From Escherichia coli (GTDB taxonomy: Bacteria; Pseudomonadota; Gammaproteobacteria; Enterobacterales; Enterobacteriaceae), in the NCBI RefSeq assembly GCF_009931435.1, contig NZ_CP043414.1: a DNA stretch of 64,000 nt; one strand, 5' to 3'. This document shows, piece after piece, positions 42,673-56,200 of the stretch. The notes beneath the pieces were generated by a model. The model searched no databases and was not told where the DNA came from. It was given only the letters and a program-made list of their open reading frames with translations. Each line of letters starts with the position of its first letter. Positions within the stretch are counted from its first letter, which is position 1. The translations under genes were made by a program, and so were the position numbers.

Positions 42673-43430
42673 GTGCGGCACTATAATGGTTTTCACAACA
42701 AGGAGCCATTTTCTTATACCACTTTCAGAGACCATCCGCTTATGCCACCGCCCTCTACGCAACTGTTTGCAGAGCACCTTCCCACCGAGTGGATACAGCA
42801 CCTCCTGACGCTTTCTGCTCATGCGACTATTTGTCGTCTTAACCTGAGCGCGGATGGCGAAGCGGGGATTAGCCTGCTGGCCCGCAGCGCTGTCACCCAG
42901 GAGCGCCAGCGCGTGGGGGCCCCCTGGTGGAATGGCTCTTCCGCCAGACCGCACAGACATGGGGCGCGGAACGTTACCTGAAGGATGACTGGCACGGCCT
43001 GCAACTTTTTGCCATTGATGGCGCACAGTTCAGGACACCTATGAACCTGAGTTGCGTGAATATTATGGCTCTGCCAACACATCCACTGAGCGGCAGAGCG
43101 CCTACCCGGTCATGCGTCTGGTGGCGTTAATGAATCTGGGAATCACATTCTGCTGAATGCCATGACCGCGGCCTACCGGCGGAGCGATACAGCGTGAGGC
43201 AACTAAAGCGGCGTCAGAAATCAGCTTTAAGTTCGCATTCCAGTTTATCGTGACAGAAATGATAGTGCAGGGAAATACGGCGTCACCAGGAACCATCCCG
43301 AAACGGCTGGAGCATCTGCGGGGTGCTCTGGAAGCGGTGTTCCCACGACTATCAAGGCCGAGGGCTGTTAAGGTATCAAAAACCCGTTATCCGGTGAAAC
43401 ACAGTGCTGCCCCGCTTAAGTGACGGCATT
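42673..43430 (+). pseudogene. IS4-family transposase remnant, frameshifted and internally deleted (N-terminal and C-terminal parts only)
   Basis: Broken frames carrying segments that resemble, as recalled, N- and C-terminal parts of IS4 InsG (FRQTAQTWG...LQLFAIDGAQFRTP; PVMRLVALMNL; ASPGTIPKRLEHL...FPRLSRPRAVK); no intact DDE core. Confidence 0.6.
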
Positions 43431-43593
43431 GTGTTTCTGACTGGCCTTAACTTTCCCTGAATCTCTGACGATCCTCACCATTGATATTTTCTTCATTCCT
43501 CACCAGAGAAATAAAAAATCACTATACTCATCAAAATATGATGATCACCTTTATTCAGGTGATCACCTTACTATTTTATACGGAAAATAAATC

Positions 43594-44244
43594 ATGAATA
43601 TCCGTCAATCATTACATGACCGAATCTATGCAGAATACCCTCAACAGGCTAAAGATATATTACTGTATTTCCCCACTTATGAAATTATGCCATCGACCAT
43701 AAAAATGGTTATGATTAATGAGGTGGTAGCTATAACACCGCAAGAAGATTTTTATACACCAGAGTCTGGTTATTTTACGACTGTCGCCCGACAGTTAGCG
43801 CTGGCTGGATTATCGGCAAGTAGTGGCGAAGTCTTACTCAACCATGGTATCTACCTGACCTCCGCACTGAAACTACCTAAAACACAGATCACAGCCACAC
43901 CCGCGGAGATCATTCTCTGGTCACCTATTGTAGAATGGGAGCTCGAACTCTTTGCCAATATAAAAGTTATTTTCGTTGGCGGCGATATCGCGCGAAAATG
44001 CCTTAACATCATCGCGAAAAAGCAAACACGTAAACATGCCATCCCTTCAACTCCGACGTACAAACTGATGAATAGCGAATTAGTCTGGAAAGGAATAAGC
44101 ATACTTCCTGGATATATTCTTACCGGAAAAAACCTGCTCATTGAAAAGTCAAAAATCGAAATGAATGTCGAGCAATTAAGAAAAGGAATTGCGATTTATC
44201 GCAATAGTAACAGTAACCATACGAATAATTCAGTTCATGAATAA
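43594..44244 (+). CDS. hypothetical protein (216 aa), AT-rich orphan gene
   Basis: Clean ORF in an AT-rich stretch, convergent with the helicase operon; no family recognised. Confidence 0.5.
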   Translation: MNIRQSLHDRIYAEYPQQAKDILLYFPTYEIMPSTIKMVMINEVVAITPQEDFYTPESGYFTTVARQLALAGLSASSGEVLLNHGIYLTSALKLPKTQITATPAEIILWSPIVEWELELFANIKVIFVGGDIARKCLNIIAKKQTRKHAIPSTPTYKLMNSELVWKGISILPGYILTGKNLLIEKSKIEMNVEQLRKGIAIYRNSNSNHTNNSVHE

Positions 44245-44757
44245 GAGATGAATCATTAATAACAAGAAATCACTGACAAACCACCTGTAAAAGGTCAATC
44301 ATTTTAGTTCAATTTCCTTTGTCATGATTATATTTTTATCGTCCTGACGATACTATTAACAATTACAATATTTATACCCTCCCCTGAACAAACAGAAAAG
44401 AACTCATACATTCGTTTATAATTCTGGTAATCCTGGCATCATACGTTTAAAATTTAAGGTGTTTGTTTTATAATCATGGTTCCAAAGACTATTGGTCACC
44501 AGAAAATGCCAGCCTTTTCGTGCCAGCTATATTTGTCCAGTGTGTTACCCCATCCAAAAATCATCCACATCCTGATGTTATGTTAGATATAGAGAAAACA
44601 GGTTGTACTGTGCAATATGCTAACCGCATAAGCGAATATAATTTCTAAGCTGATATTGTCTGGCTGTTGGGAGCTAAACAATATAAATATCGCCAGTTGC
44701 CAGAACGGTTATATAGACCAGGAGCGTTTCGGCTCCTGGTCTGTTTCGGACATATTA

Positions 44758-46872
44758 TTAATCAGCCACTAATAGCGGACTAGGGATACCAGATGATGAA
44801 ACAAACAGCCCTTTTACGGCACGGGTTGCAGCCACATGCAGTAACGCGCGCTCATTAAATAATGCATCACGCTGTTCAACGGGATCATCGGATGCTAATG
44901 CTTTTATTTCCGGCACAACGCCTTCGTTAATCCCCACCAGGAACACATACTGGAACTCAAGCCCTTTAATACGGTGCATCGTTGCAACTCGCACGCCTGG
45001 GCGTGCATCGCTGTCACCGCTATCATTGCCTAAATTAAATGTCTCAATTCCGGCGTCATTGAGTGCTGATGCGTAGCGGTCACAAGCATGTTTAGTACGC
45101 GCAGTAATGCAGATATCCTGAGAACGAACCTGATTCGCCAGCAATGCCTGAATTTGCTTGACGAGTGTTGCAGCCTCTTCTTTGAAATCTGCCGCATGCG
45201 TAATCATGGGCTTTTCCCCGTGCAGTAATGACAAATAATCATTACTGGTATCCGCTTCGCCATCGAGGTTATCAACCTTCACACCAGTTAACAGCCCAAC
45301 AGCAAATTGACGCGTCTCTTCTGTGGTCCGATAGTTAATCTTCAATTTTTTACTGCGACGACCACGGACGTTAATACCACACTGACCAAGAACGACCTTA
45401 TTGCGATAAATACGCTGATGCCCATCCCCGACAATAAACAGATCGTTGGGCGACTCGGGAACCAGGCTGCGAATAAGAGTAAATGCCGGGGCACCGATAT
45501 CTTGAGCTTCATCGACGACAATACTGCTATAAGGTAGTTGGACCTGCTTTTCTTTAAACAGAACAATAGCCTCATGCATGGCATCGCCCATTTCGCGCAG
45601 TTTGGCACGCGCCATTTGTGCTCTGAATTCTTCGAAAACTGGCCAGATTTTCGCCCGTTGAATACGGGATAACGCTGTACCACGTCCAACCCGGCTGACT
45701 TTGAGGTATTCCTCCCGGGTGTAAACCGCATTTGGCTGGACAACGCGTTGCCACTCTTCAGCATAGAAATTGTCAGGTAGCCCCAGTTCGGCAGGTGCCT
45801 GCTGCAAGGCATAGTTCCAGCATTTACGTCGCCCTTCATCGCTGTCGTATACCACGCGGAAATCATAACCGTGGCGTTTTAGTTGGTCGCTCATCCAGGC
45901 ATCAATGTTAACGACGTCAATACGCGCCATCTCTTCTCGCGTACACAACCGCTGGAGATTAGCGCGAATATCTGCCGCCAGGTTACGCGTAAAGGTCGTG
46001 AAAAGTACCTTCTTACCGGGTTTATCTACCAGACGCTGAGATAACCACCGCGCACGGTGCATTGCAACAACCGTTTTCCCTGTACCTGCACCGCCCAGTA
46101 CTCGTACCGGACCATTAGCGGGCGACTCCACCAGTTTTCGCTGGCTCGGGTGCAGAAATACACGCCATTTTTCTAAAGGCGCATTAAGCATCTGCAATAG
46201 TTCCTGTTCATTTTCAACGACATGGAAGCGACGTTTACTTCGTTCAATCGCCTCCATAAAGTCGTTGGTATCAACAGGCTCATCACGATGATCGTTAAAC
46301 TCTTCCAGCACTTCCTGGTAATCCAGCCCTTCTGCCAGCCAGTGCAGAGGTTCCCAGGCTTCTGCTGGCATTATGCTTTCAAGTTGATTAAGCCCGGCTT
46401 CATCGGTAAGCGCCATCACCTGATCAATAAAGACAGGCGGCACACCCAGGGCCAGAATCTGTTCCGCGCTGTAAGCTGCGAAGAGTTTCGGTTTATCAAC
46501 CACCGTTTCCGCTGCCGGTTTGATATAGCTAATATCAATGACCTGAATCGCGCCAGTAACCGGGTGAATCGAACAATCATGCCGCCGCGCCCAGTCATAT
46601 GCTTCGTCGTGTTTATCCACCCACATCAGCATATACAGAGCACCCTGTTCAGGTTTCAGAACAATGCCGCGATAAGTTTGATCGATTCGCACCGAATGGA
46701 CATTTTTACTGCGCGCATCGTGGATCTTTTCATAGTTAAGTCCATTACTGGTCGGGTCCTGACGGAATTTGGAGATGAATTCCTGCACCTTTTTTTGCTG
46801 TGCTTTTGGGATCCGCGCGAATGCGCCCAGAAAACCATCAGAAAGTGCCACCTTGGGCGTTTGCACCGTCAT
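44758..46872 (-). CDS. UvrD/Rep-like superfamily 1 helicase (704 aa), last gene of defence-like operon
   Basis: Q-motif and Walker A (LHPSQRKLV...GGAGTGKT), VVDEAQD, GDGHQRIY, YRTTEE, MHRIKGLEF; ATG overlaps upstream stop (ATGA). Confidence 0.8.
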   Translation of the reverse strand: MTVQTPKVALSDGFLGAFARIPKAQQKKVQEFISKFRQDPTSNGLNYEKIHDARSKNVHSVRIDQTYRGIVLKPEQGALYMLMWVDKHDEAYDWARRHDCSIHPVTGAIQVIDISYIKPAAETVVDKPKLFAAYSAEQILALGVPPVFIDQVMALTDEAGLNQLESIMPAEAWEPLHWLAEGLDYQEVLEEFNDHRDEPVDTNDFMEAIERSKRRFHVVENEQELLQMLNAPLEKWRVFLHPSQRKLVESPANGPVRVLGGAGTGKTVVAMHRARWLSQRLVDKPGKKVLFTTFTRNLAADIRANLQRLCTREEMARIDVVNIDAWMSDQLKRHGYDFRVVYDSDEGRRKCWNYALQQAPAELGLPDNFYAEEWQRVVQPNAVYTREEYLKVSRVGRGTALSRIQRAKIWPVFEEFRAQMARAKLREMGDAMHEAIVLFKEKQVQLPYSSIVVDEAQDIGAPAFTLIRSLVPESPNDLFIVGDGHQRIYRNKVVLGQCGINVRGRRSKKLKINYRTTEETRQFAVGLLTGVKVDNLDGEADTSNDYLSLLHGEKPMITHAADFKEEAATLVKQIQALLANQVRSQDICITARTKHACDRYASALNDAGIETFNLGNDSGDSDARPGVRVATMHRIKGLEFQYVFLVGINEGVVPEIKALASDDPVEQRDALFNERALLHVAATRAVKGLFVSSSGIPSPLLVAD

Positions 46873-49800
46873 TTGTCACCTCCGGACAGATGTTGCAATG
46901 TATTTTCGTCAATTGGCCCGAATGCAACGTGCCAACCCCTGGTTGTGAATAATGGAATAAATTCTTGATTATCAATAATCAATGCCCATTTTTGTGATGG
47001 CCAGGCGAGATCGGCTTCCGCAATAATTTCACCTTCATCATTTTGCAATTCGTAGCCGAGAGTCGGCGCAGAGAGAGAATGAGACTGAAGCAACGCGATC
47101 TCTTCAGCGCTTAATAAGCCAAACTCAATAATCTCAGCCCAACTTTCATCAGTCTCTGGTACTGCCTCTGGCGTTGCCGTAACTTTAACGTCAACGCTTT
47201 CCTGCGGTAAATGTACGGCTTTACGGCTGGTAAAGGTCATATCCGGCAGGAACTGTAACAGGTTTACCAGTCGCCAGAAGCCATTGAGTCCCGCTTCATA
47301 ACCGTCATCCTGCGTATAGCGATCGTCAAAACAGATATGCAAACGCAGCCAGCTGCGCATTTGTGCGACACTGGTCGTCGGTTTAATGGCTTGTTGTGGC
47401 AACACCGAAGCCAGCTCAATAAATTGCTGCGATGAGTTACAGCTATCGAGTAAACCACCAAAGACAAACGGTTCGTCTGGCAAAAGCTCTGCTAGCCGCC
47501 AGTCTGGCGCGTTTTCCTGCATTTCATAGGCATACTTTTGTTTCGTTCCCGCGTCCTGTGACTTCTTCACATCCAACCACACCCAGGCATGTGCAGCAGC
47601 CATTTTCTGCCATAACTGCGTTCTTCCTCCCGGCTCGGCGAGATAATCCAGCAGCAGTGCAAAACTGTTGCGTTCCCGGAACGACGCTTCAAGGGCCGCA
47701 AAGTTGGTATCGTGAAACAGGTTATAAAACTTAGGCTGTTTCATATCCGGGTTATGCCCAAGCCCCAGGACATCCTGAACATGTTTAAGCCCAGGCTCTT
47801 TGAGATCGGCCCACGTGACTGTCCACACCCAGAAATTACCGCTATCCCGAATCGCCTGGCGTTTTTGCACATCCTCTGCGACGCTATTTTTGTGAAACGC
47901 AAAGCCATCAAGGAAAATAGCTACCGGTTTAATGGCATCAGACTGCATAAGCGGATATAGCACGTAATCCGGGCGACAAGGGATCCCCACAGCCTCTTTA
48001 GCGCCTAAATCCACCTGAGCTTTAAGATGCCAGCTCATCATCGGTTCGCTGCGGGTGTTAATAATCCACCCAGCGCCCTGATGCGCGTAACTGCGACTGA
48101 CAATCAGGTTTTTATTTTCTTGCAGGCAGCTAATAAACCGTTTTTCCAGCTCACTGCCCATCATGGCTTCGAGGGAAATGTTTTTGATGGAATCAATTAC
48201 CCGTATCGAATCTCTTGCCTGCAAAATTTTCGCCAGCAAGAGACGCGCCTGATCGCGGGAGACATACTTCATGCGCCCACGGTCACGGTAAGCGTAAACG
48301 CAACGATAACAACCATCTTTATGCGTATCATGGTTGCAACTGCATTCCACTATCGCCTGATAGGCCAGTTCAAGTAATTTCAGCAAATTGTCGGGAGTGC
48401 GCATCAGCTCTTTAAGAGAACCAGTCCCCCCCGGGACGGTATCGTAAATCACCAGATACTGCCGCCAGGATTCGCCTTCATTTTCCGGCTCGCGGTACAC
48501 AACGCCTTTCAGGTGATCGACATTCCCCTTGAAGTAATGTTTAAGGCCGAGCTGGATCGCCGCCCCAAGAGAAGCCTCCACGACACGGTCATTACTGTAA
48601 CTGCTTACCGGGAGCAGAATTCGCAACGCTTCTGACTCCAGCTGGCGATAGAGATAGAGATAATCTTCGAACTTCGCCTTTTCCGGTTCCGTGCGATATT
48701 TGCAGCTCAAATCATGACGTGGTTCATGATCGCGAGGACGCTGTACCATGCCGCACCCCAGGCAAACTTTAAACCCGGTTCGCTTCTTCGCTTCTCCGGC
48801 AATCATCAACTCATTGGCATCATCCGCCATTTTGCCGAAGTTGATATCCCGCAGGGTGACTTTGCTTAAAAATTCAAAACCAAACGGAACTTCGCCTTCC
48901 TCAATCGCGTATGCCGCCGATACATCTTCTTTTTCGAAACTAACCAATAGCTGACGCTGGAAGAAAGCAGGTTCACGGCTGTCGCTCTCGTCGCTGATCT
49001 GGCTATCACGTGCGCTGGCGCGGGCATACACCTGGCGAAGTTTCAGCAGCGTGGTTTTTTGTCCGGCGTCGGCCCACCCCGGTGTGCCACATTTCGGGCA
49101 ATATTTATGCTGGTCGCCCGTCTGGTCGATATTTTCGCTGTAGTTACAGTGGCTACAGATACGCCAGTTCTCCGGCTCAGAGACCTTCAGGTCTATCTGC
49201 TCAATTTCAACTTTATGCCCACCGGCATAGAAATTATTCAGCGGAGCCAGCTCAGCCAGCGCCGTTGATGCCGGGCGTTCATATTCGAAAGTGGTGTTTT
49301 GATATTCACGCGCTTCCCCGCCTTCTTTACGCCGCCAGAGCACAGAACGTAACGTAATACCGGCTTCCGGGAAGGCGTAGTTAGGCAGCAGACCTTCATC
49401 CGTGAGGAAATTCAGCGTCTGCTTATTGTTGATTTGATTGACTAGCGCCATCAGCGCCTGCCGTTCTGAAGTTAACTCGCGCATATCGCTGTCAAAGTTT
49501 TGATCGCGCGGCGCGTTCTCCAGCTTATCGATACTGCGCTTGAGTTTATCGATGCGTGAACGCAGAGATTTGCGATCTTCCACCAGCAGTTTTAACGCCT
49601 CTTCGATACGCTGCACCAGAGAGCGTTGTCCTGGCGCGCCCTGAAGATAAGACAACAACTGTTGGCGAGTTTCTGCGGCAAGATCGGGGAAGATCGCCGT
49701 AAATTGTGCAGCAATCTCCGCATGATGCTGTTCGATATATCTCAGTAAGTTATACGGAAAACCCGATTTACGCCCGAACTCCAGCTCATCCAGCATCTGT

Positions 49801-52800
49801 TTGACGTTTTTACAGATAGCGGATTCTGGTACACCGGTTTTCACCCAGTTATCCATACAAAAAGCTGCCAGCTGGCGTTCGAGAATAGCCGTTGCATTGA
49901 GGAAGACGCCAGGAGCCTGCACCTGGCCCTGCATCATCTCCAGCGGTTCTTCAAAGAAAAACTGATCGTGCGGGTTCCCTTCTGCCACGGTAATGTTTAA
50001 CGCGTTACCATCTTTACGACCGGCGCGACCAATACGCTGCAAGTAGTTGGCCTGAGCAGGTGGGACAGAACAGAGTAAAACGGTGGAAAGATCCCCAACG
50101 TCAATACCCATCTCCAGCGTCGGTGTTGCCGACAACAGGTTGATATTCCACGGTTGGTTGCCACGGTAGAACGATTTTTCGGTGGCTTCGCGATCTTCAC
50201 GGCTAAGCAGCCCCGTGTGTTCTGCGCCCTGCACGCGCGCGATGTCCATGTTCTCCCAACGCCAGGTCGCCATATTGTCGACTTCCTGGTAACGACCTTC
50301 ACAACGTAAAGAGAGACAAGGCGCATTACGCCACTGCCAGCCTTGATCGGCCGGAGCCCGGACAACCTCACGGCAACATGAGCAATTAAGCTGAACGACG
50401 TCACGGCTCACCACCAGCGCCGAAGGCACCAGTCCCCAGGCTTCACGCCCTTTGGTGTCAAAATCTTTTACTACTCCGGCTATTTTCAACGCCGTAAACA
50501 GGCGTCGTAACACTGTTTCCGCAACGCTACTGATAAACAGATTATTGCCGTTACTCAGCGTGCGATTGATCCAATGCTGATACCAACTGGGGTTAGACTT
50601 CGCGCCAATCAGGCGATGGAAACCATTAATTTTTTCAAACGACGCATAAGCCGGTTTACGCGTTTTCGGACCGATAGAAGGCATATAGCGCGATGTACGC
50701 TCTTTTTGCGTCATCATAAAGGTCGTGCCATCACGGCGATAACTTTCGAACGCCGGATGCATAACGGCCCCGGCCTGGCGTTGATACCAGATAACCCCCA
50801 GCGCCAGGTGCGCTACCTGCTCGACGCTCACACCGGACATCTCATCACCCAGCTCTTCACAAAGCTGTTGATGCAGGGCGGTAATTGCCGGATTAAAGCG
50901 TTCTTTATCCACTCCGGCAACGGCATAACCGGTGGCTTCCAGCGTACGTCCGATACGCGCGCGCAGGGTAAATTCGCTGTACACCTCCCAGTCGAGGCGC
51001 AGGGAAACCAGCTCCGGCAGATCGGAGTTCTCCGCCAGTTTGCCTTCATTTTTCAGTGTCTGATAATCATTCAGCCACTGCATATTTGGTGCGATGAAGT
51101 TCGCTGCAAAATGAGCATCGTCCGGTGAACGTTCACGCGTTTGTTGGCAAACACGCGCCGCGAACGCATCCAGCGGTAATGTCTCTTTTTCGCCAAGAAC
51201 ACTGGCGATTTGCCCACGAATCATCAGCGGCCAGGTTCGGGCAGTAAAAAAGCTGGCACGATGCGCGGCGTCTTGTACCGAGTCAGAAAACGTAATCAGC
51301 TTTTTATGTTCGTTGAACTGGCTGCCATAAAGCTGGTGAATCATCACCGCCGACAAACTGGCAGCCCGTGACCCCAGAATCGAAATCCCCTGTTTGCTGT
51401 TGCAGTACGGGCATTCATTAGCAAACTCCAGCTCGTCCTTACGCTCTTTGAGCATATCCGGGATCAGTACCTGCAACAGTTCCGTATGACCGCAATGTCC
51501 ACACTGGACGCTGGACTGTCGGTTCAGTTTCAGACAGGTAGGGCACAGTTTCTGGTGTGCGCCACTGACCGCTTTTTCGTTGTTATCCGGGAAAGCAAGG
51601 ACGATGGAGCGCCCTTTTTCAAAGAACTGGCGATAAATGCCGTCGAGGTCTGTTTCCAGCTGAACGCTTTGCCCATGACGCAGGCTGGCCCAGCCAGTTG
51701 CGTGGCAGTCACGGCAGTGGATAACCGGCAAATAGTGTTCGCGGTCTTCCACCGCCACATCATCGGCAAACACCAGTCTCGGCGTTTTCGCCACGCTGGC
51801 GACCAGACGACGCATCTCACGAAGCCACAACTGGGAGCGCAGTTGCACAAACGGCAGCACCGGGCGCGCTTTCTTCGCCTGGAGACGTTTTTGCCGATCG
51901 TGTTCCATTTCCGGTACTTCGAGACGTGCCTGTGCGATCAGCGCCAGAATGCTTTGCAGCACGCGTCGGGCATGGTCGGCGCTTTCTGCCAGCATAACCT
52001 GGAGATTTTCCAGACACTCTCGTTCAGAGAGGATCCCGCCTTGCAGATCATGGAGTAAGACATGCATCACGCTGTGGCGGCGTAACAGTGACCCCAGCGC
52101 AATACGCTTTTCACGCCCGTCGTCGCTCTCCAGATCGTCCGGGAGTTGCAAGTCGCTGTCGGGGAACCACAAAGGGATTTGCCCGTTAAGATACGCTACC
52201 GGGGTAGCGTAACTCTGCGGGTCCAGGGCCGAAGCGACCTCCTGCCCCGGATACTGACTGTACGCAATGGCGTAATCCTGCAAGTACTCCGCTGCCGTGT
52301 AGCGATCTTCGCGAATAACGGCGTCATCGGTAAACGGCTGGTCAAAGATTGTTTTTGCGTAATCGAGCAGTTGCCCCAGTTCGTCGCCGACGGTCGCTGA
52401 TGTCCCGACACAGGCGAATCGTTGGTTATCCACACCTATGTGATGCTTCAGACGTCGCACCAGACAGGCCAGATCCGACCCTTGCGCGCCATCAAACGTA
52501 TGCAATTCATCCACGACCAGGTAGCGCAATGAACCGGGCTGGTTGTAACGCCAGAGCGGCTGATCGCCAGGGCGCATCAGCAGGTAGTCGAGCATTTTGT
52601 AGTTGGTCAACAGGATGTCCGGCGGGCTTTCGCGCAGCGTGTGCTTGCAGGTAATGACCTTTTCTGCCGACATTTTTTTGCTGGGTTCGATTTCGCTGTC
52701 GCCGACAAACAGGCCGACGGTCACCTTGCCATGCAGTTGTGGATCGCTGGCGATGGTTTTGGCGAAACGGCTGGCCTGATCGGTTGCCAGGGCGTTCATC

Positions 52801-53210
52801 GGGTAGATGATAATCGCTTTAACCCCGGCTTGTGACGCGCCCGCGCAGTGGTTGAGCAGCGGGAACATAAAACATTCTGTTTTACCGGAGCCGGTACCGG
52901 TAGCGACCAGTGTCGGCTGTGGCGCGTCGCTTCCCAGACGCTGAAATGCCCGGGCCTGATGCGCGTGCGGCGGGAACGGCAGCGTCAGATTAGGGAAAAA
53001 ATTCAGCGGTAAGTCACTTTTACGAAACGGCAACTGGGCGGAAAGGTATGGTCCTTTCAGCAGCGTTTCCGGCTGGGCCAGAAATTGCTCCAGCATTGAG
53101 ACATTATCGTTATTCTCACCGTTAAACAGCGGGCTGTTTAGCGGGAACGCCGCCCGTAAAAAGGCGGCAACGCTGTCGGCGACCTGCCGACTGACAACGG
53201 ACGGCAACAT
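46869..53210 (-). CDS. giant DExH-box helicase with Zn-ribbons, DUF1998 (MrfA-like) domain and C-terminal Vsr/DUF559-like nuclease fold (2113 aa)
   Basis: Motif I GTGSGKT (~aa 105), motif II DELH (~234), TSAT (~270), motif VI QRIGRAGR (~1057); DUF1998-type IYDTVPGGTGS...CSCNHDTHKDGCYRC (~1590-1640); RPDYV...VAIFLDGFAFH...D..KRQAIRDSGNFWVWTVTWADL (~1745-1805). Confidence 0.8.
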   Translation of the reverse strand: MLPSVVSRQVADSVAAFLRAAFPLNSPLFNGENNDNVSMLEQFLAQPETLLKGPYLSAQLPFRKSDLPLNFFPNLTLPFPPHAHQARAFQRLGSDAPQPTLVATGTGSGKTECFMFPLLNHCAGASQAGVKAIIIYPMNALATDQASRFAKTIASDPQLHGKVTVGLFVGDSEIEPSKKMSAEKVITCKHTLRESPPDILLTNYKMLDYLLMRPGDQPLWRYNQPGSLRYLVVDELHTFDGAQGSDLACLVRRLKHHIGVDNQRFACVGTSATVGDELGQLLDYAKTIFDQPFTDDAVIREDRYTAAEYLQDYAIAYSQYPGQEVASALDPQSYATPVAYLNGQIPLWFPDSDLQLPDDLESDDGREKRIALGSLLRRHSVMHVLLHDLQGGILSERECLENLQVMLAESADHARRVLQSILALIAQARLEVPEMEHDRQKRLQAKKARPVLPFVQLRSQLWLREMRRLVASVAKTPRLVFADDVAVEDREHYLPVIHCRDCHATGWASLRHGQSVQLETDLDGIYRQFFEKGRSIVLAFPDNNEKAVSGAHQKLCPTCLKLNRQSSVQCGHCGHTELLQVLIPDMLKERKDELEFANECPYCNSKQGISILGSRAASLSAVMIHQLYGSQFNEHKKLITFSDSVQDAAHRASFFTARTWPLMIRGQIASVLGEKETLPLDAFAARVCQQTRERSPDDAHFAANFIAPNMQWLNDYQTLKNEGKLAENSDLPELVSLRLDWEVYSEFTLRARIGRTLEATGYAVAGVDKERFNPAITALHQQLCEELGDEMSGVSVEQVAHLALGVIWYQRQAGAVMHPAFESYRRDGTTFMMTQKERTSRYMPSIGPKTRKPAYASFEKINGFHRLIGAKSNPSWYQHWINRTLSNGNNLFISSVAETVLRRLFTALKIAGVVKDFDTKGREAWGLVPSALVVSRDVVQLNCSCCREVVRAPADQGWQWRNAPCLSLRCEGRYQEVDNMATWRWENMDIARVQGAEHTGLLSREDREATEKSFYRGNQPWNINLLSATPTLEMGIDVGDLSTVLLCSVPPAQANYLQRIGRAGRKDGNALNITVAEGNPHDQFFFEEPLEMMQGQVQAPGVFLNATAILERQLAAFCMDNWVKTGVPESAICKNVKQMLDELEFGRKSGFPYNLLRYIEQHHAEIAAQFTAIFPDLAAETRQQLLSYLQGAPGQRSLVQRIEEALKLLVEDRKSLRSRIDKLKRSIDKLENAPRDQNFDSDMRELTSERQALMALVNQINNKQTLNFLTDEGLLPNYAFPEAGITLRSVLWRRKEGGEAREYQNTTFEYERPASTALAELAPLNNFYAGGHKVEIEQIDLKVSEPENWRICSHCNYSENIDQTGDQHKYCPKCGTPGWADAGQKTTLLKLRQVYARASARDSQISDESDSREPAFFQRQLLVSFEKEDVSAAYAIEEGEVPFGFEFLSKVTLRDINFGKMADDANELMIAGEAKKRTGFKVCLGCGMVQRPRDHEPRHDLSCKYRTEPEKAKFEDYLYLYRQLESEALRILLPVSSYSNDRVVEASLGAAIQLGLKHYFKGNVDHLKGVVYREPENEGESWRQYLVIYDTVPGGTGSLKELMRTPDNLLKLLELAYQAIVECSCNHDTHKDGCYRCVYAYRDRGRMKYVSRDQARLLLAKILQARDSIRVIDSIKNISLEAMMGSELEKRFISCLQENKNLIVSRSYAHQGAGWIINTRSEPMMSWHLKAQVDLGAKEAVGIPCRPDYVLYPLMQSDAIKPVAIFLDGFAFHKNSVAEDVQKRQAIRDSGNFWVWTVTWADLKEPGLKHVQDVLGLGHNPDMKQPKFYNLFHDTNFAALEASFRERNSFALLLDYLAEPGGRTQLWQKMAAAHAWVWLDVKKSQDAGTKQKYAYEMQENAPDWRLAELLPDEPFVFGGLLDSCNSSQQFIELASVLPQQAIKPTTSVAQMRSWLRLHICFDDRYTQDDGYEAGLNGFWRLVNLLQFLPDMTFTSRKAVHLPQESVDVKVTATPEAVPETDESWAEIIEFGLLSAEEIALLQSHSLSAPTLGYELQNDEGEIIAEADLAWPSQKWALIIDNQEFIPLFTTRGWHVAFGPIDENTLQHLSGGDK

Positions 53211-56200
53211 CAGGCGCTCTCCTTATCTTGTGCAAAGAACGCCCAGGCCACTTTGTAGTCGTCTTCGCGATCCGGCTTGATAAACGGTGCCTGCCAGGTG
53301 ACGGTACGGCGCTCGCCTTCGTCGCTGCGGGTATAGTCATCAAAGGTGACGCTGACGGTACCGGTTTGCAAATGTTTGACATCATCCCAACCGATGGCTT
53401 GATCGGTGCAGTCACCGCCGGTCCACTCCGGGCTGTCGACGTTAAAGACAAAGCCGTTTTTCAGGTCAGCTTTACGCGCGGTGCGAGGCAAGCCAACGCC
53501 CACCAACCCTTTGCTTGGGGTAAAGATGATGCGGCCGTTTTGGTCGTACCAGGTGTCCGCTTCGTACTGACGCATCACCGGGAACTGTACACGGTAAATG
53601 GTAAGCAGCTCTTCGAGGGTTAACCCCAGCGCCTGTGCCACCAGAACGTCGATTTCCACCAGCGCCTGACGACGACTGTAGTCGGAGCGTAAGGCACAGT
53701 TACGCTGCCACTCTGGGGTCAGATTGGCGAAGAAATCTTGTGGGAGCTGCGGGAGATCGCGGCTCCAGCGTTGGGTATTGAAGTCTGGGGTGTAGCAGGA
53801 TTGCCAAAGGCCAGCATATACATCATTTACAGAATTTAATGATAATACTAAGCAGTATAATAATGCCTTTTGTCTCGGATTGAATAATACGTATGAGAAA
53901 CCATCAAGCATCTGATGTAAGTTTGCCTTGCCAGTAGATTTACAAATAAAATCAAAAGGTAAAGAAAAACACATACCTGAATGTTCGAGTAACTGATTCT
54001 GTGAGCTATAGCAGTAAGAACGTACTGCGTTCATGTGACTTATTTCTGGCGGATAAATAGCACTAATTAGTGTACGTTCCCCCGATTGAGCCAACATGGC
54101 TCTGATAGCTAAGCGATAATAATCTGTTACCTTCTTCGGTTCATCTTCAGCCAGTTCAGTCCATGTAACGCATGGAGTACGTTTGGCATACTCCTGTGCA
54201 TCACAGGCTGGAATATAGTTAGTGCGCGGCAAATAGTCGTCGGGCAGAGTTAGCAAGTCTAGGTTATCGTATGCTTTATTCGTGTCACAAACCGCTCTAG
54301 GCGTATTGTAGAAAGGATTGCCAACAAAAAAATGAGGGCCAGACAAAACCCATTGTGATGCTTCTTCCGGGAACTGTGTATGTCGCTCAATTGTACCATC
54401 GCTTTGCTGATTAGTTTCATGCCACATTTCTAGAGAATAATATTGCCCCTGCAAATCACCTAATCGCCTAGGTTGTTTCGCAAACTTTTCAAGTACTGTA
54501 ACTAATTGTGTAGCATGCAACGCAGGAAGACGGGCTTCCTGGGCAGGAGTTCCGACAACATCATAAAGACGCGCAAAAAGACCCAACTGTTTTAAATTTA
54601 TAGGCACGACTCGATCGAAATGTCCCTGGAAATTCCATTTAACTTTTACTTTGCCATCGATTTCAGTTTCTTCTTTTATCCCCGGGACAATGCCTTCCCC
54701 TTTATGTTCAAAACACGCGTCAATAGTTTGAGGAATAAATAAATTTGCTATATTTGAGAATGCCACTATCTGAGAATAGGGGCCATATACATTGATGCTA
54801 AATCTAGTGTGATTATCTACTTCAGCAAATATTTTAACTTCATTGGCAAATTGAAAATGCGCCCTCAACCTCGGGTACACTGCCGCACGCAACTGCCCAC
54901 CTTTCGGGTCATCATAAATCCCTTCCGGGTGCAGGAAGCCTGCCACGCCTTTCTCTGCCCCTAAGCGCCATGCCTGCGGCAGGAAGCATTTATACAAGTT
55001 GGTCTGCACCCCGCGCAGTACCGGGTAGTTTTGCTGCGCATTGAGGAAGTTTTGCATCCCTTCACAGCCTTCATACTCGCTGCGCCAGGCCGCTTCCAGC
55101 GCTGGGATCTGGTTAAAGGTATCAACACGCAACGTTGCCAGCTTCGATGCACTCAGCTTACGCAGCACAAATTCCGGCTCGTAATCACCCAGCACGCCCG
55201 CTTCCTGCCATTCCACTTTTAGCCACGGCGGGTTTCCGAGCATCAGGTCAAAACCGCCGCGCTCGGCAAACAAGTCGCAGAACTCCAGATCCCAGTGGAA
55301 GAAACGGTGCTGCTTTCTCAGGGCATCGACAATCGCCAGACGCGGCAAATGGCGGAACAGCACATCGGTTTTCAGACGACCAGCAACGGAAAACAGCGAA
55401 GACTCTTCTCGCAGCAGGCCTTCTTCGGCAAACAGATCGCCAGTGGTGTGATCCGCAACTTCAGTGACTTTTTCCGTGATTACAATCCCGTCGAGCAGGG
55501 TTTCAATCTCAAACAACCAGGTACCGCGATCCGGTAGCTCATCAGCTTTGTCGATCGGCCAGAACCACAGCGCGCACCAGTAGTCCATCACCCAACGCAG
55601 CTTCTGGTAGGCGCTGTTATCTTCAAGACGACCGCTAAAGGTTTCATCTTTACTGCTCAGCGAAGAACGTGTCTGCTCGCTGTTTTCTGCCGGCCACACC
55701 GGGTAGCTGTCGGCGGTTTTCAGACGTTCTGCTTTAAGTTGCTGGCGATAGGTGTTCCACAGTGCTTCCACCTTTTCGCTGATACGCTGCACATCAGCAA
55801 TCTCATGCCCGGCAAAGCTTTTAATAAACTCTTTGCGCCAGCTGTCCAGCGCTTTGAAGTCATCCGGATAACGCTGCTTAACAGTTTTATCGCTGTAATT
55901 AGCCATACCGCCGTCGGGCAGCAGGAAGTGGAAAATCTGCGTCTCTTCACGCGGCGTGTTCATCGCCAGTTCGACCGGCTCGCTGTTAAGCCAGCTCGGA
56001 TCTTTGACTTTTTTGTAGGTCAGTTCGCTCTTGTTGAACACCTGACGGCGCGCGCCCACCAGCGAGTTACCGCAGTGCAGCTGGTAACCAAACCACGGTA
56101 CAAAGGCATCGCCACTGATGGCGTTCAGCCACAGTGACACTTCCGCCAGCTCCACCGCCACCGGGTTTAAGTCCACGCCGAAAACGTTGTTGTCGGCAAT

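What the first reader, a model, noticed from the sequence alone, without database searches (positions are those of the whole stretch)
43594..44244. AT-rich 216-aa orphan gene convergent with the defence operon
A clean ORF of markedly lower GC than its neighbours, with no family recognisable by eye, sits between the IS remnant and the 3' end of the operon. Small cargo genes in this position are often accessory defence or anti-defence factors.
Basis: inference. Interest (0 to 1): 0.45.

Follow-up and report, generated by a model that had tools for sequence, protein, structure and literature searches.

The report
Imported uracil-DNA-glycosylase-like gene beside defence island
The "orphan" gene encodes a divergent DNA base-excision enzyme (uracil-DNA-glycosylase fold) that E. 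coli picked up from gut anaerobes; it is an optional, often-lost passenger at the edge of a phage-defence island, not part of the neighbouring operon, and its target base is unknown.

Summary
A 216-aa ATG ORF lies at 43594-44244 (+) at 40% GC, between an IS remnant and the 3' end of a convergent DISARM/Druantia-like helicase-methyltransferase operon (50-53% GC).

It belongs to a small uncharacterised clade found in 263 of about 100,000 species, all gut-type Bacillota or Bacteroidota at 48% identity or less. The clade lacks the family 4/5 hallmarks: Fe-S cysteines, motif-2 His and motif-3 Asn. The E. coli copy is an isolated cross-phylum import and the clade's most divergent member.

It is not an operon component. 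About 545 of 5,426 E. coli genomes carry the operon. Only 92 have the intact gene, 40 have an IS1-truncated copy, and about 400 lack it through an ORF-sized indel flanked by a 14-bp direct repeat.

Outside E. coli, relatives sit beside WYL regulators, efflux pumps and housekeeping genes, not defence systems.

Best reading: a stand-alone base-excision glycosylase carried as optional cargo. A Brig-like antiphage role remains possible but untested.

The parts
43594..44244 (+). 216-aa gene for a UDG-superfamily DNA glycosylase-like protein (RefSeq WP_001026378.1-type)
43714..43731 (+). Motif 1 equivalent, I41-N42-E43-V44-V45-A46 (clade consensus INEVVP), at the end of strand beta1. E43 is conserved across the wider clade.
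   Evidence: Invariant columns in A1. Key-position table over 52 representatives. Secondary structure of the model. The register against canonical motif 1 was not resolved.
43846..43881 (+). Beta2 / motif 3 region G85-K96 (GIYLTSALKLPK; clade consensus GIYITNAVKTPK). S90 sits where family 4 and family 1 have the uracil-binding Asn. L94 replaces an Fe-S Cys.
   Evidence: Residue roles are from PMC5387724.
44107..44148 (+). Motif 2 equivalent P172-K185 (PGYILTGKNLLIEK). I175 aligns with the family 5 catalytic His and N180 with an invariant Asn.
   Evidence: Invariant columns. hhalign residue mapping.
43542..43565 (.). Perfect 9-bp inverted repeat TGATCACCT-N6-AGGTGATCA with two GATC sites, 29 bp upstream of the ATG. 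It could be an operator or a 5'-UTR hairpin.
   Evidence: It is also present, with one mismatch, in the allele that lacks the gene. Function is inferred only.
43523..43528 (+). Possible -10 hexamer TATACT preceded by an A-tract. A weak Shine-Dalgarno GGA lies at 43582-43584.
   Evidence: Read directly from the sequence. The consensus scan did not call it. Inference only.
43587..43600 (+). Left copy of the imperfect 14-bp direct repeat (ATAAATCATGAATA). It contains the start codon.
   Evidence: Base-level comparison with the O157:H7 empty allele.
44248..44261 (+). Right copy of the direct repeat (ATGAATCATTAATA), 4 nt after the stop codon. The roughly 661 bp between the copies is the gene-sized indel.
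43424..44757 (.). AT-rich block (35-40% GC) made of the upstream flank, the gene and the 513-bp spacer, set between the IS remnant and the helicase operon.
   Evidence: The spacer is shared with operon-bearing genomes that lack the gene.

Best explanation
The ORF encodes a stand-alone, probably monofunctional DNA glycosylase of the UDG superfamily. It belongs to a small uncharacterised clade otherwise confined to gut-type Bacillota and Bacteroidota.

Shown:
- The fold is UDG-like.
- The protein is homologous to family 5/4 enzymes.
- The clade has its own invariant residue set: N42/E43, F53, Y87, K93, G130-D131, P172, Y174-I175, T177-G178, N180-K185.
- It lacks the family 4/5 Fe-S cysteines, motif-2 His and motif-3 Asn.
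- The E. coli copy came by cross-phylum transfer.
- The gene is an optional, frequently lost module next to the DISARM/Druantia-like operon, not a part of it.

Inferred mechanism: like other UDG-fold enzymes, it flips a non-canonical or damaged base out of DNA into a pocket. That pocket would be formed by the end of beta1 (N42-E43), the stacking F53, the end of beta2 (S90) and the motif-2 loop. An acidic or amide residue (E43 or D131) would position water to cut the N-glycosidic bond, while the N180-L181-L182 loop fills the gap, leaving an abasic site.

Substrate and regulation: the usual uracil-specific Asn is Ser in E. coli and the leaving-group His is absent. The enzyme is therefore more likely a slow, broader or altered-specificity enzyme (MUG/UDGb-like) than a fast uracil remover. 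In its home phyla the gene is often the second gene of an operon headed by an HTH-WYL-WCX regulator, a class that senses ssDNA and DNA damage. This points to a damage-inducible base-excision function. In E. coli it has lost that partner and behaves as dispensable cargo.
For: Fold:
- Foldseek top 50 hits are all UDG superfamily: 2d3y at E 1.4e-6, then 4zby, UdgX, TDG and UNG.

Sequence:
- Pfam UDG matches at E 0.003, below threshold, while the homologues carry PF03167.
- The family profile hits 2d3y at E 0.0014.
- hhalign to a family 5 alignment gives probability 95.2%, E 2.4e-8.

Clade:
- 441 clusters at 50% identity out of 1.84 billion proteins.
- 263 species; the best 80 are all Bacillota or Bacteroidota at 41-48% identity.
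- The close cluster is E. coli only.

Motifs: with residue roles from PMC5387724.

Not an operon part:
- The operon is in about 545 genomes, the intact gene in 92 and an IS1-truncated copy in 40.
- The empty allele differs by an ORF-sized indel between 14-bp repeats.
- Nonsense and frameshift alleles exist.

Linkage as cargo: the same gene, spacer and operon occur at two chromosomal sites, nanS and tRNA-Phe, at 99.4% identity.

Context in home phyla:
- A WYL regulator lies directly upstream in 23 of 80 loci, with a median gap of -4 bp.
- An MFS pump lies downstream in 14 of 80 loci.
- WYL regulators sense ssDNA and DNA damage (PMC11662680, PMC11804915, PMC10693628).
Against: - No activity has been measured for any member of the clade.
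- The E. coli protein deviates at 11 of 47 positions that are invariant in the other 29 aligned members, including two arginines (R159M, R169S). It may be weakened or inactive.
- Natural variants do not avoid invariant positions, and loss alleles are common. Selection for function in E. coli is therefore unproven.
- The register of motif 1 against canonical families was not resolved, so the catalytic residue assignment is inference.
- E. coli already has Ung and Mug (established knowledge). A plain repair role would be redundant, which leaves room for a different role such as defence.
Confidence: 0.55

Rival explanations
1. Brig-like antiviral effector. After transfer into E. coli the glycosylase was retuned to excise a phage-specific modified base (for example hmC or glucosyl-hmC of T-even phages, hmU, or other hypermodified pyrimidines). 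It would create abasic sites in phage DNA and act as an independent single-gene defence stacked in the island.
For: UDG-fold enzymes Brig1, Brig2 and Brig3 do exactly this. The gene sits at the edge of a defence island in an integration hotspot and travels with it to a second site. It is AT-rich and recently acquired, as reported for Brig2 homologues. It is the most divergent member of its clade and changes the base-recognition position N90 to S, which fits a specificity shift. A uracil repair role would be redundant in E. coli.
Confidence: 0.2
2. Non-functional passenger. The gene is intact by recency only, is silent or inactive in E. coli, and is on its way to loss.
For: There are 11 deviations at otherwise invariant positions. 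IS1 truncation occurs in 40 of 132 carriers, and nonsense and frameshift alleles exist. Variants fall on invariant sites at the neutral rate. It lies in an AT-rich block with a weak Shine-Dalgarno and no consensus promoter call. Its usual WYL regulator partner is missing.
Against: All 36 columns invariant across the alignment are retained and the model folds with pLDDT 90. The ORF is intact at 99% identity or more in 92 complete genomes, and the main allele is on more than 1000 contigs. The conserved N-terminus and a spacing-compatible GGA support translation.
Confidence: 0.15
3. Accessory or anti-defence partner of the neighbouring DISARM/Druantia-like operon. The glycosylase would process DNA for the helicase-methyltransferase system or modulate its activity.
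For: The gene is physically adjacent and moves together with the operon between two chromosomal sites.
Against: About 400 of about 545 operon-bearing genomes lack it cleanly, and 40 more carry only a stub while the operon is intact. It is convergently transcribed, 513 bp away. The clade is never next to such operons elsewhere. It has no phage or PHROG relatives, as an anti-defence gene might.
Confidence: 0.04
4. Genotoxin-adduct repair. The clade removes bulky or alkylated bases made by DNA-damaging small molecules, as part of a WYL-sensor, glycosylase and efflux-pump resistance cassette. The E. coli copy is a stray member.
For: WYL-glycosylase-MFS gene order is seen in Lachnospiraceae and Clostridia. 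Other loci place the gene among efflux, acetyltransferase, DJ-1, GrpB and CAT-type resistance or stress genes on mobile elements. WYL regulators respond to genotoxic stress (PMC10693628). Self-resistance glycosylases for DNA-alkylating natural products are known in other folds (PMC4705692, listed).
Against: The association covers only 29% of loci for WYL and 18% for MFS. Many loci are plain housekeeping. UDG-fold pockets usually take small pyrimidine or purine lesions (established knowledge). No such partners are present in E. coli.
Confidence: 0.1

Closest known systems
Family 5 UDG (UDGb; Thermus thermophilus TTUDGB, PDB 2d3y)
   Different: No Fe-S cysteines. Motif 1 is INEVV(A/P), not GLAPA. 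The motif-3 Asn is Tyr in the clade and Ile in E. coli. The motif-2 His is Ile. Identity is only 19%.
Family 4 UDG (UDGa; T. maritima 1l9g, S. tokodaii 4zby, T. thermophilus 1ui0) and UdgX
   Different: There is no Fe-S cluster and no motif-2 His, which is worth about 1000-fold or more in k2 and k2/Km in Tth UDGa. E. coli has Ser instead of the uracil-binding Asn. Identity is 13-17%.
Family 2 MUG/TDG
   Different: Different motifs (GINPG, NPSGLS). Lower structural similarity. Identity about 10%.
Brig1 / Brig2 / Brig3 antiviral UDG-fold glycosylases
   Same: Single-gene UDG-superfamily proteins found in AT-rich, mobile or defence-island DNA. Brig3 uses a motif-1 Asn, a pocket Asp and a loop Asn wedge. 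This clade has invariant N42, D131 and N180 in the same order along the chain.
   Different: No sequence or structure was available for a direct comparison. Brig1 homologues are mostly Actinobacteria and Brig2 homologues mostly Pseudomonadota, whereas this clade is Bacillota and Bacteroidota. No antiphage activity is known for the clade. Its relatives are not defence-associated.
wHTH-WYL-WCX-regulated damage or defence modules (CapW, BrxR, PafBC, SiwR)
   Same: In 23 of 80 loci the clade's gene directly follows an HTH_11-WYL-WCX regulator in an apparent operon.
   Different: The regulated gene here is a UDG-like glycosylase, a pairing I did not find described. The E. coli copy has no WYL gene nearby.

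Membership tests
UDG superfamily (fold level) | Alpha/beta UDG fold with a central parallel sheet; structural similarity to solved UDGs well above unrelated folds | tested here: met
UDG superfamily (Pfam PF03167) | Score at or above the Pfam gathering threshold (24.3 bits) | tested here: inconclusive
   The E. coli protein scores 18.1 bits, E 0.003, below the cut-off. Most homologues carry a precomputed PF03167 hit, often flagged weak.
Family 4 UDG (UDGa) | Motif 2 His (Tth H155) that stabilises the leaving base | tested here: not met
   The homologous His of family 5 aligns with invariant I175. There is no His anywhere in the motif-2 region of the clade.
Family 4 UDG (UDGa) | 4Fe-4S cluster ligated by four conserved Cys | tested here: not met
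   There is no conserved Cys in the 30-sequence alignment. The positions aligned to two of the cluster Cys are L94 and W109.
Family 4 UDG (UDGa) | Motif 1 GE(A/G)PG and the uracil-binding Asn at the end of beta2 (Tth N80) | tested here: inconclusive
   E43 is conserved clade-wide, but the motif reads INEVV(A/P) and its register was not resolved. The beta2 Asn is present in most close members but is Ser in E. coli and Thr in distant members.
Family 5 UDG (UDGb) | Motif 1 GLAPA; motif 3 Asn (Tth N120); motif 2 His; Fe-S Cys | tested here: not met
   Reference alignment A2 shows these as invariant. In the query they are INEVVA, I99 (Tyr in the clade), I175, and L94/W109.
Families 1, 2, 3 (UNG, MUG/TDG, SMUG1) | Motif 1 GQDPY / GINPG / GMNPG and motif 2 HPSPLS / NPSGLS / HPSPRN (motifs from established knowledge) | tested here: not met
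Brig1 / Brig3 family | Sequence or structure homology to Brig1/Brig3 and their pocket residues (Brig1 Q81, W122, Q147; Brig3 N50, E55, W100, D127, N225) | not testable with these tools
No Brig entry appeared in the PDB searches. Only a parallel in residue order was noted.
Brig1 / Brig3 family | Neighbouring ADP-ribosyl glycohydrolase and/or BapA-type partner, as at the brig1 and brig3 loci | tested here: not met
   The neighbours are an IS remnant and the helicase operon.
Brig2 family | PSI-BLAST-level homology to Brig2 | not testable with these tools
   The Brig2 sequence is not in the held text or tables, which are truncated. The accessions of this clade were not found there, but the tables are cut. 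The taxon profile differs: Brig2 is mainly Pseudomonadota.
Component of the adjacent DISARM/Druantia-like system | Consistent co-occurrence and co-orientation with the system's core genes; a match to a known component model | tested here: not met
   The operon is in about 545 genomes and the intact gene in 92. The gene is convergent with the operon. It has no PADLOC hit.
Phage-encoded UDG or anti-defence protein | Relatives in phage genomes or phage protein families | tested here: not met
   tblastn against 50,697 phage records gave no match. No PHROG family matched. BFVD gave only generic UDG-fold hits at 16% identity or less.

The most novel reading that the evidence does not exclude
The clade is a previously unrecognised UDG family: no Fe-S cluster, no catalytic His, and its own N/E-D-N residue set. 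In gut anaerobes it would be a WYL-controlled, damage-inducible glycosylase. The E. coli copy, the clade's most divergent member, would have been repurposed as a Brig-like single-gene antiphage effector that excises a modified phage base, stacked next to DISARM/Druantia-type systems.
Probability: 0.18. Interest if true: 0.65.

Novelty: new variant of a known kind. Interest (0 to 1): 0.4.

Why it matters
Antiviral DNA glycosylases are a newly opened class of immunity, so uncharacterised UDG-fold genes in defence islands are reasonable candidates. This gene is easy to test: it is small, stand-alone and native to E. coli.

Whatever its role in E. coli, the clade is a compact UDG-superfamily branch that has dropped every catalytic and cofactor hallmark of its nearest families. 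That makes it useful for understanding how this fold achieves catalysis and specificity.

The WYL-regulator/glycosylase operon in Lachnospiraceae suggests a damage-inducible base-excision module in abundant gut bacteria, a pairing I did not find described.

For annotation, the practical message is that the gene should not be counted as part of the neighbouring defence system.

Tried and rejected
- **Single-sequence searches.** NCBIfam, PADLOC and PHROGs gave no match. PDB phmmer gave only E 0.18.
- **Exact accession in papers.** None found.
- **Brig2 sequence from the preprint's supplements.** The tables are truncated, so no comparison was possible.
- **Rfam on the flanks.** Only a chance snoRNA hit at E 0.11.
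- **K-12 yjhR as a remnant of this operon.** Rejected. K-12 shares only nanS up to window 42622.
- **P0002 as a divergent orthologue from another species.** Rejected. It is a frameshifted E. coli copy.
- **Outgroup search for the spacer in about 100,000 species representatives, to decide insertion versus deletion.** No match, so the polarity is unresolved.
- **Decayed donor genes (WYL, MFS, DUF6194) in the AT-rich flanks.** None found. The only hits are transposase-like matches inside the IS remnant.
- **AFDB50 fold search.** The library was unavailable.
- **Pipolin UDG as the same gene.** Rejected on context, because there is no piPolB element here.
- **Suspected truncation of the DruE3-like gene at 61229-63802.** Withdrawn. 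The gene is intact and runs off the window end.
- **My first by-eye alignment of motif 2 (xPS = HPS).** Replaced by the hhalign register, SY-I-x-T = SY-H-P-S. The His is absent under either register.

Full report
**Observation.** The ORF is exactly as described: 43594-44244 on the + strand, ATG start, 216 aa. Its GC content is 0.402. It sits inside a 1.3-kb AT-rich block (left flank 0.353, spacer 0.361), between a 0.544-GC transposase remnant and an operon at 0.50-0.53 GC.

The window is E. coli chromosome at the fim/nanCMS locus. Upstream lie nanS and a frameshifted IS4-type transposase remnant. Downstream, after a 513-bp spacer, four convergent genes follow:
- a UvrD/GajB-like helicase, 44758-46872;
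- a 2113-aa DruE/DrmA-like helicase with an MZB domain, 46869-53210;
- a 1644-aa DrmMI/type IIG-like methyltransferase, 53210-58144;
- a DrmD-like SNF2 helicase, 58147-61005.

A true DruE3 gene lies beyond them. Calling this a "defence operon" is therefore reasonable. The gene is real, because it has full-length homologues at E 1e-28 to 1e-40 and shares the MNIRQ(S/T)L N-terminus with them.

**What the protein is.** It is not an orphan. Pfam gives a sub-threshold UDG hit: 18.1 bits against a cut-off of 24.3. The only PDB sequence hit is Thermus family 5 UDG, at E 0.18 for the single sequence and 0.0014 for the family profile. Newer RefSeq annotations already call it "uracil-DNA glycosylase family protein", while older ones say "hypothetical".

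An AlphaFold2 model built on 30 homologues is confident, with pLDDT 90.3 and pTM 0.88.
- Foldseek against the PDB returns only UDG-superfamily entries in the top 50.

To map residues properly I rebuilt a family 5 reference alignment from four plasmid-borne genes and ran hhalign against it. The result was probability 95%, E 2.4e-8, over residues 83-191.

**A distinct clade without the family 4/5 hallmarks.** An exhaustive profile search of 1.84 billion representatives finds only 441 clusters, many of them fragments. The family therefore does not merge with the very large families 4/5.

Within the 30-sequence alignment, 36 columns are invariant. They include:
- I41-N42-E43-V44-V45 at the end of beta1;
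- F53;
- G85, Y87, A91, K93, P95, K96 around beta2;
- G130-D131;
- P172, Y174-I175, T177-G178, N180-K185.

Across the wider clade, the constants are E43, G130-D131, the P-S-Y of motif 2 and E184-K185. There is no conserved cysteine.

The hhalign mapping shows what has replaced the family 5 residues:
- two Fe-S ligands are L94 and W109;
- the motif-3 Asn (Tth UDGb N120, UDGa N89) is Tyr in the clade and I99 in E. coli;
- the motif-2 His is the invariant I175;
- N180 matches an invariant family 5 Asn.

According to PMC5387724, the motif-2 His is worth three to four orders of magnitude in family 4, and the Asn at the end of beta2 binds uracil N3/O4. In this clade that beta2 position is Asn in close members but Ser in E. 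coli and Thr in distant members. The register of motif 1 was not resolved by hhalign, so the assignment of E43 (or D131) as the water-positioning residue is inference.

On these tests the protein is a member of the superfamily but not of families 1-5.

**Where it came from.** The close cluster (183 variants, the main allele on more than 1000 contigs) is E. coli only. The next relatives are at 48% identity or less. A scan of one genome per species finds the family in 263 of about 100,000 species. The best 80 are all Bacillota (Lachnospiraceae, Enterococcus, Oscillospiraceae, Clostridium and others) or Bacteroidota (Muribaculaceae, Parabacteroides, Bacteroides, Prevotella). Six Enterococcus megaplasmids also carry it. 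No phage record, PHROG family or viral structure is close.

The E. coli protein is the outlier of its clade. It deviates at 11 of 47 positions that are invariant in the other 29 aligned members, against at most 2 for any other member. The changes include P46A, N148H, R159M and R169S.

**Relation to the neighbouring operon.** The gene, spacer and operon occur at 99.4% identity at a second chromosomal site, a tRNA-Phe island with an integrase. There IS1 has removed all but the last 165 nt of the gene. So the gene travels with the island as cargo. K-12 shares only nanS, up to window 42622.

The gene is nevertheless not part of the system.
- The UvrD-like gene and spacer are in about 545 of 5,426 complete E. 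coli genomes.
- Any trace of the ORF is in 132 of them: 92 intact and 40 IS1-truncated.
- In about 400 genomes (O157:H7 and others, 97.8% identity), homology begins 4-7 nt after the ORF's stop codon.

Base-level comparison shows that the empty allele keeps the upstream region and the spacer but lacks about 661 bp. In the window, this segment is bracketed by an imperfect 14-bp direct repeat: ATAAATCATGAATA at 43587-43600 and ATGAATCATTAATA at 44248-44261. O157 has a single copy, ATAAATTATGAATA. I could not decide between deletion across the repeat and insertion, because no outgroup carries the spacer. The right-hand repeat differs from the single copy at 3 of 14 positions, which fits deletion by microhomology slightly better than a target-site duplication.

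A nonsense allele (161 aa, 21 contigs) and a frameshifted copy also exist. Rare amino-acid variants fall on invariant positions at the neutral rate: 2 of 13, with 2.2 expected. The gene is thus dispensable and loss-prone in E. coli, and the operon does not need it.

**What its relatives' neighbourhoods say.** Individual look-ups gave varied contexts:
- co-directional arrays of small stress or resistance genes with IS and integrase genes, in Muribaculaceae;
- a position 14 bp downstream of a pyrimidine-nucleoside phosphorylase gene, in Clostridia;
- a WYL/MerR/AraC array beside a MobL relaxase and integrases;
- metabolic or GNAT neighbourhoods on Enterococcus megaplasmids;
- housekeeping contexts, including rimM-trmD and dpaAB-murC;
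- an HXXEE array with a TetR regulator.

A systematic clustering of 1,054 neighbour ORFs from 80 species shows these recurrent partners:
- an HTH_11-WYL-WCX regulator directly upstream on the same strand in 23 loci, with a median gap of -4 bp;
- an MFS transporter directly downstream in 14 loci;
- DUF6194 downstream in 10 Bacteroidota loci;
- an ABC ATPase nearby in 16 loci.

No canonical defence system recurs. wHTH-WYL-WCX regulators bind ssDNA and switch on DNA-damage or defence genes (PMC11662680, PMC11804915, PMC10693628). The clade's native role therefore looks like damage-inducible base excision, sometimes coupled to efflux. No trace of these partner genes remains in the E. coli flanks.

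**Expression signals (inference).** A perfect inverted repeat, TGATCACCT-N6-AGGTGATCA (43542-43565, with two GATC sites), lies just downstream of a possible -10 box TATACT (43523-43528) and 29 bp upstream of the ATG. A weak GGA Shine-Dalgarno sits 9 nt before the start codon. The repeat is also present in the empty allele, where the same ATG opens an 11-codon mini-ORF. A strong hairpin at 44717-44742 follows the helicase stop codon.

**Most likely function, and the alternatives.** I commit to a stand-alone UDG-fold DNA glycosylase that flips out and excises a non-canonical or damaged base. It is likely slow and of broad or altered specificity, given the missing His and the N-to-S change at position 90. 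It is carried as optional cargo, and its role in E. coli is unproven (confidence about 0.55).

The most interesting alternative is a Brig-like antiphage glycosylase (about 0.2). The precedents are Brig1, Brig2 and Brig3. The location and the divergence of the E. coli copy fit this reading, but the family's context, the frequent loss of the gene and the lack of any direct comparison do not add support. A silent, decaying passenger (about 0.15), a genotoxin-adduct repair enzyme (about 0.1) and a true accessory of the operon (about 0.04) complete the list.

**Novelty and score.** Fold-level identity is already in public annotation. What is new here:
- the clade lacks all family 4/5 catalytic and cofactor hallmarks;
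- the clade is confined to gut Bacillota and Bacteroidota, with a single cross-phylum jump into E. coli;
- a WYL-glycosylase operon exists in Lachnospiraceae and Clostridia;
- the E. coli gene is a cassette-like, dispensable module and not an operon component.

I found no paper describing the clade. I rate it a new variant of a known kind, with interest 0.4. It is a well-defined and easily testable candidate, but nothing in the evidence is strongly surprising.

Noticed in passing
window 43587-43600 and 44248-44261 (compare L015 9001-9014): The presence/absence polymorphism of the gene is almost exactly ORF-sized and is bracketed by an imperfect 14-bp direct repeat that contains the start codon. 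The ORF's last 8 nt (ATGAATAA) repeat its first 7. In the empty allele the same ATG opens an 11-codon mini-ORF. Whether this is an insertion or a deletion is unresolved.
   Followed up: partly
window 43542-43565: A perfect 9-bp inverted repeat, TGATCACCT-N6-AGGTGATCA, carries two Dam (GATC) sites just upstream of the gene. It is conserved, with one mismatch, in O157:H7 genomes that lack the gene. It could be an operator or a methylation-sensitive site. No binding protein was identified.
   Followed up: partly
L030, L033, L035, L041, L056, L062, L068, L086, L088, L093, L099, L100 (around 7000-10000 in full-flank loci): In Lachnospiraceae and Clostridia the homologue forms an apparent three-gene operon: an HTH-WYL-WCX regulator (4-bp overlap), the UDG-like glycosylase, and an MFS transporter. 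I did not find this pairing described. It looks like a DNA-damage-sensing repair-plus-efflux cassette.
   Followed up: partly
L027, L036-L038, L042, L043, L052, L054, L074, L078: In Bacteroidota the homologue is followed, about 40 bp downstream on the same strand, by a DUF6194 protein (Pfam E 2e-48), an uncharacterised family that may be a functional partner.
   Followed up: no
window 42623 onward, compared with L013 (K-12) and L010 (tRNA-Phe island): The segment downstream of nanS is an integration hotspot. K-12 carries unrelated cargo there (yjhR pseudogene, topAI-yjhQ-yjhP). The same helicase-methyltransferase island is found at tRNA-Phe next to an integrase in other strains, and on a few plasmids with a different 3' flank.
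   Followed up: partly
window 44245-44757: A 513-bp, 36% GC, ORF-free spacer is conserved next to the UvrD-like gene in about 500 genomes, whether or not the glycosylase gene is present. It contains a near-consensus sigma-70-like site (TTTAAA-17-TATAAT, 44446-44474, + strand) and ends in a strong hairpin (44717-44742). Its function is unknown.
   Followed up: no
window 46869-61005 and 61229-64000: Two DruE-like giant helicases sit side by side. One (2113 aa) is embedded in a DrmD/DrmMI-like operon that ends in a UvrD/GajB-like helicase, an arrangement that fits neither textbook DISARM nor Druantia. The other is a true DruE3 (PADLOC 6e-216) that runs off the window end. RefSeq names the latter 'motility-regulating DEAH-box RNA helicase'.
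   Followed up: partly
window 43232-43387 (inside the IS remnant): The C-terminal transposase fragment shows weak similarity (40% over 53 aa, E 3e-5 per query) to small ORFs that lie about 3.3 kb downstream of the glycosylase homologue, next to a serine recombinase, in three Lachnospiraceae loci (L056, L062, L068). This may be coincidental transposase similarity.
   Followed up: no
L015 7261-7605: In the O157:H7 strain examined, nanS (sialate O-acetylesterase) is annotated as a partial pseudogene, next to the same IS remnant.
   Followed up: no
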